A stretch of 64,000 bases of DNA from Escherichia coli. GTDB lineage: Bacteria > Pseudomonadota > Gammaproteobacteria > Enterobacterales > Enterobacteriaceae. The stretch lies in the NCBI RefSeq assembly GCF_009931435.1, contig NZ_CP043414.1, one strand, 5' to 3'. The translations under genes were made by a program, and so were the position numbers. The notes beneath the pieces are model-generated. The model did no database searches. It was not told where the DNA came from and saw only the letters and a list, made by a program, of their open reading frames with translations. Positions within the stretch are counted from its first letter, which is position 1. Each line of letters starts with the position of its first letter. Shown piece by piece: positions 51,217-52,506 of the stretch.

Positions 51217-52131
51217 TTATTGCGGCCAAAGCTGCTGGTGTAAAGACTCAACGACATCAGCAATACGCGGACCCATTCCCAGAATCAGGTTTTGATCAAC
51301 GGTGATAATGCGCTGGTTTTTCCATGCGGCAGTGTGGGTAATTCCGGCAATAGAACGTAGCCGGTTAATATCGCCATCGACCATTTGTGAGGTTACGACA
51401 ATCACTTCTGGATTAGCCGCAATCAGTGATTCTGCACTGTAGCTTTTGTACTGCTGGTGGGTTGCGACGTTTTCTGCTCCGGCAAGCGAAAGAATGGCGT
51501 CCGCGACGCTGCCTTTACCGGCAACCTGTGGCGCACTTCCGCCTGCGGAGAGAATAAACATGGCTTTAACCGGGGCTTTTTTGGCCGCCACGTTTTGCTG
51601 TACTCGCTCCAGGCGTTGGTTGATCTGTGTCACCAGCGCCTCGCCTTGTTCAGGAACCTGTAGCGTTTTTGCCAGTTGGCGAATGTTGGCGTACATCTGC
51701 TCAAGGGTGGCAGGCACACGCGGCAGGGTGACGACGTTGACTTTCTGCGCTCGTAGTTGGTCGAGCACAATTTGTGGCCCGGCATCCTGCCAGGTAATTA
51801 CGCTATCCGGGCGAAGTGACAAAATGCCTTCGCTGCTGAGTTGTTTCCAGTAGCCAATATGCGGCAGTTTGGCGGTTTCTGGTGGATAAGATGTCGTTTC
51901 ATCGACACCAACCACGCGTTCGCCAGCGCCCATCGCGTAGATTAGCTCCGTCAGCGATCCTCCTGCGACCACGATACGTTCGGCAGCCGTTACGCTAAAA
52001 GCCCAGCTAAGAGCCAGTACTGCCGTAAACAATTTTTTTCGTTTTACCGCGGTCTTCGCGGCAGAGGCCACGGCTGAAATACATAACGTCAGTGGGGAAA
52101 AAAGAAACGGCCTGGTGGTGATCCTTGGCAT
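51217..52131 (-). CDS. chuT: Periplasmic heme-binding protein ChuT
   Basis: 304 aa if started at MPRITTRP...; the track ORF extends 26 codons further. A signal-peptide-like KRKKLFTAVLALSWAFSVTA segment sits about 30 codons in. Confidence 0.8.
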   Translation of the reverse strand: MPRITTRPFLFSPLTLCISAVASAAKTAVKRKKLFTAVLALSWAFSVTAAERIVVAGGSLTELIYAMGAGERVVGVDETTSYPPETAKLPHIGYWKQLSSEGILSLRPDSVITWQDAGPQIVLDQLRAQKVNVVTLPRVPATLEQMYANIRQLAKTLQVPEQGEALVTQINQRLERVQQNVAAKKAPVKAMFILSAGGSAPQVAGKGSVADAILSLAGAENVATHQQYKSYSAESLIAANPEVIVVTSQMVDGDINRLRSIAGITHTAAWKNQRIITVDQNLILGMGPRIADVVESLHQQLWPQ

Positions 52132-52154
52132 AATATGAGAACTCTTATCAAATT

Positions 52155-52173
52155 GAGAATGATCATGATTATC
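52155..52173. promoter_or_regulatory. Fur box in the chuT promoter
   Basis: GAGAATGATCATGATTATC against consensus GATAATGATAATCATTATC, 24 nt upstream of the chuT start. Confidence 0.7.
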
Positions 52174-52506
52174 ATTTGAGTTATATATGAAATACAACCG
52201 TCGATTCAATACGCAAGGCGTTACAAGCGTATTTATTTTTGATTTTTATCAAGATACTTCGTCAGCTAACGTTCTTGTTACCGACTAAATTTCAGCGCGG
52301 GAAAAAGCTGAGAACCCAGAGATATCGCGGCTTGCAGAGCAAAGAGAAGAGAAAATTATCACTGTTAACGACAAAGTTTAGTGATGAGGTCATGGGGGAA
52401 TAACCATAAAAACAAAGTGGTTTCCAGGGCGCAGGATAGGTTTCATAACCCCCTGTTTATTGTGTTAATGGCGGTTAAAAAAAAGCTTGATCATAAAAAA
52501 TTGATC

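What the first reader, a model, noticed from the sequence alone, without database searches (positions are those of the whole stretch)
51217..52209. chuT start site and signal peptide are uncertain
The longest ORF is 330 aa, but the likely start is MPRITTRP at 52131 (304 aa). Even then the hydrophobic signal-peptide-like segment sits about 30 residues in, which is unusual for a periplasmic binding protein and suggests a further downstream non-ATG start.
Basis: inference. Interest (0 to 1): 0.15.

Follow-up and report, generated by a model that had tools for sequence, protein, structure and literature searches.

The report
chuT start codon and odd leader
This is the known E. coli/Shigella heme-binding protein gene chuT/shuT; it most likely starts at the ATG at 52131, and its unusually long two-part export leader arose because a 9-bp deletion removed the ancestral start codon.

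Summary
The ORF at 51217-52209 (-) is chuT/shuT, the periplasmic heme-binding protein gene.

- **330-aa start excluded.** TTG 52209 forms the first three bases of the -35 hexamer of the shuT promoter mapped in S. dysenteriae. The transcript starts at G 52173.
- **ATG 52131 (304 aa) is a working start.** It is the RefSeq start. The identical 42-nt 5'UTR plus this ATG drove translation of a start-less gfp (PMC5458455).
- **The late hydrophobic segment is the ancestral signal peptide.** Orthologs in seven other genera, and in E. albertii and two deep Escherichia lineages, start at an ATG (MKKL...) directly before it.
- **That ATG was deleted.** All 2,236 chu-positive complete E. coli genomes carry a 9-bp in-frame deletion that removed it.
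- **Codon 28 differs between alleles.** At least 1,221 genomes have a new ATG there. The window allele (GCG; 482 genomes) and the O157 type (GCA; 310) do not.

The window allele therefore probably makes a precursor with a leader of about 49 residues: a fast-evolving extension plus the old signal peptide.

A downstream GTG or TTG start has no support but is not excluded. Signal-peptide software and N-terminal protein data were not available. This is an ordinary gene with a minor evolutionary curiosity.

The parts
51217..52131 (-). chuT/shuT coding sequence as best supported (304 aa plus stop codon at 51217-51219)
   Evidence: ORF. RefSeq/PGAP annotates the same 915-nt CDS in E. coli genomes. 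99.6% identical to the ShuT crystal-structure chain over residues 49-304.
52132..52209 (-). 5' part of the 330-aa ORF that is not coding; it contains the promoter and the 5'UTR
   Evidence: The TSS mapped by 5'-RACE lies 42 nt upstream of the ATG. The oligonucleotides of that study match the window exactly.
52204..52209 (-). likely -35 hexamer TTGAAT of the chuT promoter (my own assignment from sequence and spacing); its first three bases are the 'TTG start' of the 330-aa ORF
   Evidence: Sequence. The promoter fragment of pT-lacZ spans this hexamer, ends one base before 52173, and was shown to be an active promoter. The paper's own -35/-10 boxes are in a figure I could not see, and the consensus scan did not call this promoter.
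52181..52187 (-). -10 region (TATATAA), 16-17 nt after the -35 hexamer and 7-8 nt before the TSS
   Evidence: Sequence. The position follows from the mapped TSS. The exact hexamer is my inference.
52155..52173 (-). Fur box GATAATCATGATCATTCTC, at +1 to +19 of the transcript; the TSS is G 52173
   Evidence: It matches the consensus at 16 of 19 positions. It is identical to the S. dysenteriae site described at +1..+19, for which Fur binding to the 5'UTR fragment and loss of iron regulation after truncation were shown. The oligonucleotide matches.
52132..52173 (-). 42-nt 5'UTR, the shuT RNA thermometer hairpin; the anti-SD AUUCU (52160-52156) pairs with AGAGU (52145-52141), covering most of the SD AAGAG (52146-52142)
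   Evidence: Identical to the pF-UTR insert. The same hairpin is the MFE fold here (-6.1 kcal/mol, no better than shuffles).
52129..52131 (-). ATG start codon (MPRITTRP...), the best-supported initiation codon
   Evidence: The start-less gfp of pXG10 is translated from this ATG behind the native UTR. It has the only real SD-like pairing among the candidates (-2.4 kcal/mol; the -3.0 kcal/mol at TTG 52032 comes from GGU, not a purine-rich SD). It is conserved in all Escherichia lineages examined.
52039..52131 (-). Escherichia-specific N-terminal extension (codons 1-31), containing hydrophobic segment H1 (residues 8-22, 52110-52066) and most of the basic linker KTAVKRKK (residues 26-33, which runs two codons into the next part)
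   Evidence: Absent from orthologs of seven other genera. It evolves without a coding signature: variable columns by codon position 10/15/11, omega 0.4-0.6.
52069..52071 (-). in-frame GTG (codon 21), candidate alternative start giving 284 aa
   Evidence: No SD. The codon is ATA in E. albertii and GCG in L010. No positive evidence for use.
52048..52050 (-). codon 28, GCG (Ala) in this allele; ATG in the chuT-type allele
   Evidence: Alignment. Exact 45-mer counts among 2,236 chu-positive complete genomes are ATG 1,221, GCG 482 and GCA 310.
52038..52039 (-). junction of the 9-bp in-frame deletion that removed the ancestral start codon (L008 has ...CGA AGT TCC ATG AAA AAA CTG; the window has ...CGA AAA AAA TTG)
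   Evidence: The outgroup genera carry ATG AAA AAA at this position. All 2,236 complete E. coli genomes align across it without the insertion.
52030..52032 (-). in-frame TTG (codon 34), candidate alternative start giving 271 aa
   Evidence: Some older annotations use it (P0005). It has no purine-rich SD and would give a leader with no charged n-region. The codon is CTG in L008-L010.
51985..52038 (-). ancestral Sec-type signal peptide remnant (K32-A49: KK-LFTAVLALSWAFSV-TA); predicted cleavage V-T-A|A-E or T-A-A|E-R
   Evidence: It aligns with the 20-22-residue signal peptides of orthologs (MKKL...AQA|AER). Omega is 0.04-0.12. The crystal construct begins at A49.
51220..51984 (-). mature periplasmic heme-binding protein (from A50; PF01497 domain at residues 53-281)
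   Evidence: Purifying selection is strong: omega 0.02-0.06, variable columns by codon position 13/3/88.

Best explanation
The gene is chuT/shuT, the periplasmic heme-binding protein of the Chu/Shu heme ABC importer. Transcription starts at G 52173 from a promoter whose likely -35 hexamer contains the spurious TTG 'start' of the 330-aa ORF. Fur represses transcription through a box at +1..+19. The 42-nt 5'UTR is a temperature-sensitive hairpin that masks a weak Shine-Dalgarno sequence (AAGAG). Translation starts at ATG 52131 and gives a 304-aa precursor.

The precursor's leader of about 49 residues has two parts. The first 31 residues are an Escherichia-specific, almost unconstrained extension that happens to be hydrophobic (H1). 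Residues 32-49 are the ancestral Sec signal peptide (KK + LFTAVLALSWAFSV + V-T-A|A). The ancestral start codon sat directly in front of KKLF. It is still present in E. albertii, in two deep Escherichia lineages and in all other genera examined. A 9-bp in-frame deletion removed it in the E. coli/Shigella lineage, so initiation was handed to the upstream in-frame ATG. Most E. coli later gained a new ATG at codon 28 (chuT-type). The allele in this window (shuT-type, GCG at codon 28) did not, and so depends on ATG 52131.

I infer, without direct evidence, that export uses the second hydrophobic segment as the functional signal peptide. The basic linker KTAVKRKK would stay cytoplasmic, and signal peptidase I would cleave after A49 or A50. 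This yields the same mature N-terminus as in the orthologs.
For: **Published experiments on sequence identical to the window**
- The 5'-RACE TSS lies 42 nt upstream of the ATG, and the Fur site is at +1..+19.
- The pT-lacZ and pF-UTR oligonucleotides equal window 52230..52174 and 52173..52129.
- gfp in pXG10 lacks its own start codon, so the GFP came from this ATG.
- The other AUG in the UTR (+8) is out of frame.

**Annotation**
- RefSeq annotates the 304-aa form in every intact genome inspected.

**Comparative evidence**
- Orthologs of 274-279 aa in Citrobacter, Kluyvera, Klebsiella, Raoultella, Enterobacter, Providencia and Proteus start MKK(L/I) two to four bases after the stop codon of a receptor gene.
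- L008, L009 and L010 keep that ATG and also carry ATG1, 33 codons upstream and in frame.
- The 9-bp deletion is visible and is present in all 2,236 chu-positive complete genomes.

**Dependence on ATG1 in this allele**
- Codon 28 is GCG or GCA in at least 792 genomes.
- A 304-aa protein whose mature part equals the ShuT crystal-structure sequence and which has Ala28 is widespread. The Met28 version of it is not on record.
- The S. dysenteriae gene used in the experiments is therefore most likely of the window's type.

**Constraint**
- Omega is 0.02-0.06 for the mature part, 0.04-0.12 for H2 and 0.4-0.6 for the extension.
- The crystal construct and PF01497 begin just after H2.
Against: - The reporter constructs carried only the UTR and the ATG. 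They show that ribosomes can initiate there, not that the native 304-aa product is the exported form.
- The SD is weak (-2.4 kcal/mol) and lies 10 nt from the ATG.
- The extension shows no third-position bias (10/15/11) and evolves at about the synonymous rate. Its open frame across four lineages is not significant (simulated p of about 0.13). Comparative data alone therefore cannot show that it is translated.
- An EHEC secretome paper reports that SignalP did not classify ChuT as having a signal peptide, although PSORTb called it periplasmic (PMC12962677). Which sequence version was used is unknown.
- I could not run a signal-peptide predictor.
- I could not obtain the papers that may report the N-terminus of purified ShuT.
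- H1 followed by A-S-A could itself be recognised as a signal peptide. The consequences for the topology of H2 would be unclear.
Confidence: 0.7

Rival explanations
1. The exported protein is initiated at a downstream non-ATG codon. GTG 52071 would give MASAAKTAVKRKK-LFTAVLALSWAF-SVTA|A, a leader of about 29 residues with an otherwise canonical layout. TTG 52032 would give MFTAVLALSWAFSVTA|A. Translation from ATG 52131 would then be unproductive or only regulatory.
For: Either start would place the hydrophobic core at a normal distance from the N-terminus. The extension has no coding signature. The Leu codon 34 is TTG only in the lineage that lost the ancestral ATG; it is CTG in L008-L010. It is preceded by an A-rich, weakly structured tract. 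Some gene callers chose TTG 52032 (P0005, 271 aa). SignalP reportedly fails on the database form of EHEC ChuT.
Against: Neither codon has a Shine-Dalgarno sequence; the -3.0 kcal/mol found upstream of TTG 52032 comes from GGU, not a purine-rich SD. GTG 52071 is not conserved in E. albertii or L010. The TTG start gives an n-region with no positive charge. ATG 52131 demonstrably initiates translation in vivo, and ribosomes elongating from it would run over both internal sites. No experiment points to internal initiation.
Confidence: 0.15
2. Translation starts at ATG 52131 but the first hydrophobic segment is the signal peptide (n = MPRITTR, h = PFLFSPLTLCISAV, c = A-S-A|A, cleaved after residue 24). 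The mature protein would then keep KTAVKRKK plus H2 as an N-terminal tail or anchor, unless a second cleavage after H2 follows.
For: By rule of thumb H1 has an n/h/c layout in the usual position, and its hydropathy peak equals that of H2.
Against: H1 contains two prolines and several Ser/Thr residues, and it carries Arg or extra Pro in L010. It is unconstrained in evolution, whereas H2 is constrained. Five Lys/Arg residues would have to cross the membrane, against the positive-inside rule (established knowledge). H2 could then act as a stop-transfer segment and leave the binding domain in the cytoplasm. The crystallised, heme-binding protein begins after H2.
Confidence: 0.1
3. The full 330-aa ORF from TTG 52209 is translated.
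For: It is the longest ORF.
Against: TTG 52209 lies 36 nt upstream of the mapped TSS, inside the likely -35 hexamer. RT-PCR primers upstream of the TSS gave no product from cDNA. There is no SD. Stop codons occur in this frame upstream of the ATG in L008 and L009 (translations). RefSeq does not use it.
Confidence: 0.01

Closest known systems
ShuT of Shigella dysenteriae (PDB 2R7A/2RG7) and ChuT of pathogenic E. coli
   Same: The mature part differs from the crystallised ShuT at 1 of 256 residues. The locus is the same (chuA divergent; chuW and chuX downstream). The promoter, Fur box, 42-nt thermometer UTR and start codon are identical to those studied in PMC5458455.
   Different: Nothing essential; it is the same gene. 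The window allele has Thr5 (ACC, the state seen in E. albertii, L008 and L010) where the other E. coli sequences examined here have Ile5. It has Ala28 where the chuT-type allele has Met28.
HemT/HmuT-type heme-binding proteins of other Enterobacterales (Citrobacter, Kluyvera, Klebsiella, Raoultella, Enterobacter, Providencia, Proteus; solved relatives include Y. pestis HmuT 3MD9 and P. aeruginosa PhuT 2R79)
   Same: Mature domains are 55-85% identical for the Enterobacterales orthologs. The signal peptide is homologous to residues 32-49 here, with a conserved cleavage region A-x-A|(A/S)-(E/D)-R-(I/L)-V. The more distant solved relatives HmuT and PhuT match at E about 1e-43 to 1e-45.
   Different: The Enterobacterales orthologs are 274-279 aa with a normal 20-22-residue signal peptide. 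Their ATG lies 2-4 nt after the stop codon of an upstream TonB-dependent receptor gene, so the gene sits inside an operon. They have no promoter, Fur box, thermometer or N-terminal extension of their own. That receptor shows no tblastn match to ChuA at E<=1e-5 over the 1.5 kb held.
Extended signal peptides: the ESPR of autotransporters and two-partner secretion proteins, and long Tat leaders
   Same: The leader is about 50 residues long, with extra sequence N-terminal to an otherwise standard Sec signal.
   Different: There is no ESPR or Tat profile match and no twin-arginine motif (T-T-R-P-F-L-F has a single Arg and is not conserved). The extension is unconstrained rather than a conserved functional module.

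Membership tests
ShuT/ChuT/HmuT periplasmic heme-binding proteins (class III / cluster A substrate-binding proteins, Pfam PF01497) | Peripla_BP_2 fold and sequence | tested here: met
   PF01497 E=1.5e-34, residues 53-281. 2R7A E=2.7e-162 with 255 of 256 residues identical.
ShuT/ChuT/HmuT periplasmic heme-binding proteins (class III / cluster A substrate-binding proteins, Pfam PF01497) | Tyrosine heme ligand in the N-terminal lobe (the H-I-G-Y-W motif; Tyr94 in 304-aa numbering, assigned from my recollection of the ShuT literature) | tested here: met
   The residue and motif are present and identical to the crystallised ShuT and conserved in nearly all orthologs inspected; one (P0087) has HIGSWKQ. 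The ligand assignment itself is from memory, not from a paper read here.
ShuT/ChuT/HmuT periplasmic heme-binding proteins (class III / cluster A substrate-binding proteins, Pfam PF01497) | Location in a heme-uptake locus | tested here: met
   chuA is divergent, and chuW/hutW and chuX/hutX lie downstream.
Sec / signal peptidase I signal peptide | Positively charged n-region, h-region of 7-15 hydrophobic residues, and small residues at -3/-1, all within roughly the first 35 residues | tested here: inconclusive
   Residues 30-49 (KRKK / LFTAVLALSWAFSV / V-T-A) meet the n/h/c rules and align with ortholog signal peptides. However, they begin 30 residues after ATG1. Residues 1-24 also look signal-like. 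No predictor could be run, and SignalP is reported not to classify EHEC ChuT.
Tat signal peptide | Twin-arginine motif (S/T)-R-R-x-F-L-K | tested here: not met
   The sequence is T-T-R-P-F-L-F with one Arg. E. albertii has N-R-Q-F-L-F and L010 has I-R-P-L-R-F.
Lipoprotein (signal peptidase II) signal peptide | Lipobox [LVI][ASTVI][GAS]-C | tested here: not met
The Cys is Gly in L010.
shuT 5'UTR RNA thermometer with Fur box in the UTR (Wei, Kouse & Murphy 2017) | Sequence identity to the experimentally characterised 42-nt element, with a hairpin pairing AUUCU to the SD region | tested here: met
   Window 52173..52129 equals the pF-UTR insert base for base. The same hairpin is the MFE fold. Function was not tested here; it is taken from PMC5458455.

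The most novel reading that the evidence does not exclude
A stretch of former 5' leader became protein-coding in E. coli/Shigella when a 9-bp deletion destroyed the ancestral chuT start codon. This created a two-segment export leader of about 49 residues. The two allele classes in the species would then be wired differently. shuT-type alleles (this window, O157, S. dysenteriae) would make all of their ChuT from the thermometer-controlled ATG1. chuT-type alleles (B2 lineages, ST131) regained an internal ATG at codon 28. That ATG could bypass the thermometer and produce a canonical 21-22-residue signal peptide.
Probability: 0.25. Interest if true: 0.4.

Novelty: new variant of a known kind. Interest (0 to 1): 0.2.

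Why it matters
**Annotation.** The 330-aa form found in some older annotations is wrong. The 304-aa form is the defensible call. Predictors that look for a signal peptide in the first 30 or so residues can misclassify this protein as non-secreted, as one EHEC secretome study appears to have done.

**Biology.** This is a small, clean example of start-codon turnover. An in-frame deletion removed the start codon, an upstream ATG in a regulated leader took over, and a new internal ATG later arose in one allele class. If the two allele classes really differ in which start they use, temperature control of heme uptake could differ between O157/Shigella-type strains and ExPEC-type strains. Nothing here changes what ChuT is understood to do.

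Tried and rejected
1. **Origin of the extension.** I tested whether it is a decayed copy of the chuA signal peptide or 5' region, or a remnant of the 3' end of the receptor gene that precedes hemT in other genera. Local DNA alignments against shuffled controls gave z between -1.5 and +0.8, with one isolated 2.9. The repeat finder found no inverted repeat linking the two starts. Rejected.
2. **Other export signals.** Tat, lipoprotein and ESPR-type leaders do not fit: the motifs are absent and there are no profile hits.
3. **Counting alleles with megablast.** 45-81-nt queries returned nothing, probably because low-complexity masking of the A-run left no 28-nt word. I repeated the counts successfully in 'distant' mode.
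4. **Papers not held.** I tried to read Eakanunkul et al. 2005, Ho et al. 2007 and Burkhard & Wilks 2008 for the N-terminus of purified ShuT. Full-text searches for ShuT or ChuT with 'signal peptide' gave nothing on this point except the EHEC secretome remark.
5. **PDB residue numbering.** I first thought, from memory, that the ShuT crystal-structure numbering implied a 277-aa database entry starting at codon 28. A 21-residue vector tag would explain the same offset, so I dropped this argument.
6. **Strain LS45.** It carries a 1-nt deletion in this region, and I checked whether it shows that the ATG1 frame is dispensable. PGAP simply flags the gene as a frameshifted pseudogene. Uninformative.
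7. **Open frame as evidence of translation.** The frame from ATG1 to the old start is open in four lineages, but simulation gives p of about 0.13 under neutrality. Not significant.
8. **Rfam.** There is no family for the shuT thermometer. A Hammerhead_HH9 hit inside the leader (20 bits against a gathering score of 52, E=0.039) is chance.
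Full report
**What is there**

The ORF 51217..52209 (-) of 330 aa with a TTG start exists exactly as described. 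It lies between chuA (52815-54797, +) and chuW/chuX (49860-51197 and 49353-49847, -). Residues 75-330 are identical at 255 of 256 positions to the crystallised periplasmic heme-binding protein ShuT of Shigella dysenteriae (2R7A, E=2.7e-162). The PF01497 domain covers residues 53-281 of the 304-aa form. The same 1.35 kb is present once in 2,236 of 5,426 complete E. coli genomes at 95% identity or more in all but one. RefSeq annotates a 915-nt gene there, shuT or chuT, that starts at the ATG corresponding to window 52131. The gene is therefore a known one. The question is only where translation starts and how the protein is exported.

**The 330-aa start is excluded**

Wei, Kouse and Murphy (PMC5458455) mapped the shuT transcription start in S. 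dysenteriae by 5'-RACE and RT-PCR. It lies 42 nt upstream of the start codon, with a 19-nt Fur box at +1..+19.

Their oligonucleotides let me place this on the window base for base:

- The promoter fragment of pT-lacZ ends ...CTCAAAT, one base before G 52173.
- The pF-UTR insert GATAATCATGATCATTCTCAATTTGATAAGAGTTCTCATATTATG equals window 52173..52129.

The TTG at 52209 is the first three bases of TTGAAT (52209-52204). By sequence and spacing this is the likely -35 hexamer of that promoter, and it lies 36 nt upstream of the TSS. The hexamer assignment is my own, because the paper's boxes are in a figure I could not see. Primers upstream of the TSS gave no product from cDNA. In L008 and L009 the frame upstream of the ATG also contains stop codons.

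**ATG 52131 is a working start codon**

The vector pXG10 carries gfp without a start codon. [quoted passage not shown] They produced GFP that was iron-regulated and temperature-regulated. The only other AUG in the insert, at +8, is out of frame, so initiation occurred at this ATG.

- The UTR folds here into the published hairpin, in which AUUCU pairs with the AAGAG Shine-Dalgarno region. The fold is weak (-6.1 kcal/mol, no better than shuffles), as expected for a thermometer.
- Among the in-frame candidates, only ATG 52131 has a real SD-like pairing, and even that is weak (-2.4 kcal/mol, 10-nt spacing).
- TTG 52209 and GTG 52071 have none. The -3.0 kcal/mol found upstream of TTG 52032 comes from GGU, not a purine-rich SD.

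**Why the signal peptide sits 30 residues in**

From ATG 52131 the protein begins MPRITTRPFLFSPLTLCISAVASAAKTAVKRKKLFTAVLALSWAFSVTAAERIVV. A hydropathy scan shows two equal peaks, H1 (residues 8-22) and H2 (residues 33-47), separated by the basic linker KTAVKRKK.

Orthologs explain the layout:

- **Other genera.** In Citrobacter, Kluyvera, Klebsiella, Raoultella, Enterobacter, Providencia and Proteus the protein is 274-279 aa. It starts MKK(L/I)..., aligned with K32-K33-L34, and has a 20-22-residue signal peptide ending A-Q-A|A-E-R or similar.
- **Their gene context.** At the DNA level their ATG lies 2-4 nt after the stop codon of an upstream TonB-dependent receptor gene (...WNF*). That receptor shows no tblastn match to ChuA at E<=1e-5.
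- **Deep Escherichia lineages.** In E. albertii (L009) and two other Escherichia species representatives (L008, L010), chuA is already divergent from chuT as in the window. The ancestral ATG is still present (...KR SS M KKLF...KP QP M KKLF...KR LP M KKLF). The upstream ATG, SD, Fur box and an open frame of 33 codons are also present.
- **E. coli and Shigella.** Relative to these, the window and all E. coli sequences examined lack 9 bp. L008 reads CGA AGT TCC ATG AAA AAA CTG, and the window reads CGA AAA AAA TTG. The outgroups carry the ATG, so this is a deletion in the E. coli/Shigella lineage. All 2,236 complete genomes align across the site without the insertion.

**Two allele classes**

Codon 28 is ATG in the chuT-type allele (for example ST131), giving MVKRKKLF..., a canonical short leader. 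It is GCG in the window and GCA in O157.

| Codon 28 | Allele type | Genomes with the exact 45-mer (of 2,236) |
|---|---|---|
| ATG | chuT-type | 1,221 |
| GCG | window type | 482 |
| GCA | O157 type | 310 |
| other variants | - | 223 |

The deep lineages have ACG, GCG or ACA at this codon, so the ATG is derived.

A 304-aa protein with the exact mature sequence of the ShuT crystal structure and Ala28 is widespread in public assemblies. The Met28 version of it is not on record. The S. dysenteriae gene on which the experiments were done is therefore most likely of the window's type. In this allele the only ATG upstream of the old signal peptide is ATG 52131.

**How the parts evolve**

| Part | Codons | Omega (dN/dS, pairwise) | Variable columns by codon position 1/2/3 |
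|---|---|---|---|
| Mature protein | 51-304 | 0.02-0.06 | 13/3/88 |
| Old signal peptide (H2) | 32-50 | 0.04-0.12 | 6/3/9 |
| Extension | 1-31 | 0.4-0.6 | 10/15/11 |

- In the extension 39% of columns are variable, close to the 35% seen at third positions of the mature part. It therefore evolves almost neutrally.
- Retention of ATG1 and an open frame in four lineages is not significant under a neutral simulation (p of about 0.13).
- Comparative data thus neither prove nor disprove that the extension is translated. They do show that its amino-acid sequence hardly matters.
- Its hydrophobicity may be a by-product of a pyrimidine-rich tract (CCGTTTCTTTTTTCCCCACTG). This last point is my inference.

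**Most likely mechanism**

- *Shown elsewhere on identical sequence:* the Fur-repressed promoter, the TSS at 52173, the thermometer UTR, and initiation at ATG 52131.
- *Shown here:* the ancestral start codon was deleted, the window allele has no replacement ATG, and H2 is the conserved, homologous signal peptide.
- *Inferred:* the 304-aa precursor is exported using H2. The linker, with five Lys/Arg, stays cytoplasmic (positive-inside rule). H1 stays cytoplasmic or inserts as the first limb of a hairpin. Signal peptidase I cuts at V-T-A|A-E or T-A-A|E-R. The result is a mature protein of 254-255 residues and about 27.5 kDa, matching the orthologs and close to the crystal construct, which begins at A49.

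**Rivals**

It is attractive because it normalises the leader, and because codon 34 is TTG only in the lineage with the deletion. It lacks a Shine-Dalgarno sequence, conservation and any experimental support, and ribosomes from ATG1 would cross both sites. Confidence about 0.15.
2. **H1 is the cleaved signal** (A-S-A|A at 24/25). This conflicts with the positive-inside rule, with the lack of constraint on H1, and with where the folded domain starts. Confidence about 0.1.
3. **The 330-aa form.** Refuted.

**Caveats**

- I could not run a signal-peptide predictor.
- One paper states that SignalP did not classify EHEC ChuT while PSORTb called it periplasmic (PMC12962677). The sequence version used is not given, and it may have been the 330-aa form.
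- The primary biochemical papers on ShuT were not available.

**Comparison with what is known, and novelty**

The gene, its promoter, Fur box, thermometer and annotated start are already known. I did not find three points described in the papers I could search:

- the explanation of the misplaced signal peptide by a 9-bp deletion of the ancestral start codon;
- the near-neutral evolution of the recruited extension;
- the ATG28 / Ala28 allele split.

These make it a minor new variant of a known kind. It is an atypically long, two-segment Sec-type leader produced by start-codon turnover, not a new system. Interest is low (0.2).

Noticed in passing
window 52786-52817 (+): Rfam shuA_thermo (RF02597), the chuA/shuA 5'UTR FourU thermometer, scores 60.1 bits against a gathering score of 58, immediately upstream of the chuA ATG at 52815. 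Both divergent genes therefore carry their own thermosensor.
   Followed up: partly
window 52504-52526 (+): ATCGATAATAATTCTCATTATCA is a Fur-box-like sequence. It was reported as a direct-repeat partner (74%) of the chuT Fur box and overlaps a promoter-like match on the + strand (TTGATC-17-AATAAT, 52487-52515). It is presumably the chuA promoter and Fur site.
   Followed up: no
window 52063-52045 (-): Codons 24-29 form a GC-rich hairpin (CCGCG-AAGAC-CGCGG) in the predicted mRNA fold of this allele. In the chuT-type allele the 3' arm reads CCATGG, so the stem is broken exactly where the new ATG28 sits. This could affect access to that start.
   Followed up: no
window 52166-52089 (-): The first AUG of the mapped transcript lies at +8, inside the Fur box. 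It is out of frame and opens a 25-codon ORF (MIILNLIRVLILCQGSPPGRFFFPH*) that overlaps ATG1 and ends at TGA 52091-52089. It has no SD and lies 7 nt from the 5' end. One public gene call (P0012) starts there because of an indel.
   Followed up: no
window 52159-52130 (-): A sigma-70-like match (TTCTCA-18-TATTAT, 9 of 12) has its -10 element overlapping ATG 52131. If active, it would give a transcript lacking ATG1. It is only a consensus match, and the count in the region is no higher than in shuffles.
   Followed up: no
window 52039-52033 (-): A run of seven A bases (CGA AAA AAA) lies at the deletion junction. Public sequences show length changes here or nearby that shift the frame: P0008, and strain LS45, annotated as a frameshifted pseudogene. 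These may be real slippage or sequencing error.
   Followed up: partly
L011-L039, upstream of position 1501: Outside Escherichia, the chuT ortholog follows a TonB-dependent receptor gene in the same orientation. That receptor ends ...AWNF* and has no tblastn match to ChuA at E<=1e-5 within the 1.5 kb held. The Escherichia chu locus therefore looks like a mosaic in which chuT acquired a new upstream region. The origin of that region was not found.
   Followed up: partly
L007 (JAIJJM010000641.1): A 1.9-kb contig labelled as a Collinsella MAG carries chuT with 99% protein identity to the window's E. coli ChuT. This is almost certainly binning contamination.
   Followed up: no
window 52119-52117 (-), codon 5: The window has ACC (Thr5), shared with E. 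albertii, L008 and L010. The six other E. coli sequences aligned have ATC (Ile5). The window allele therefore keeps the ancestral state at this site.
   Followed up: no
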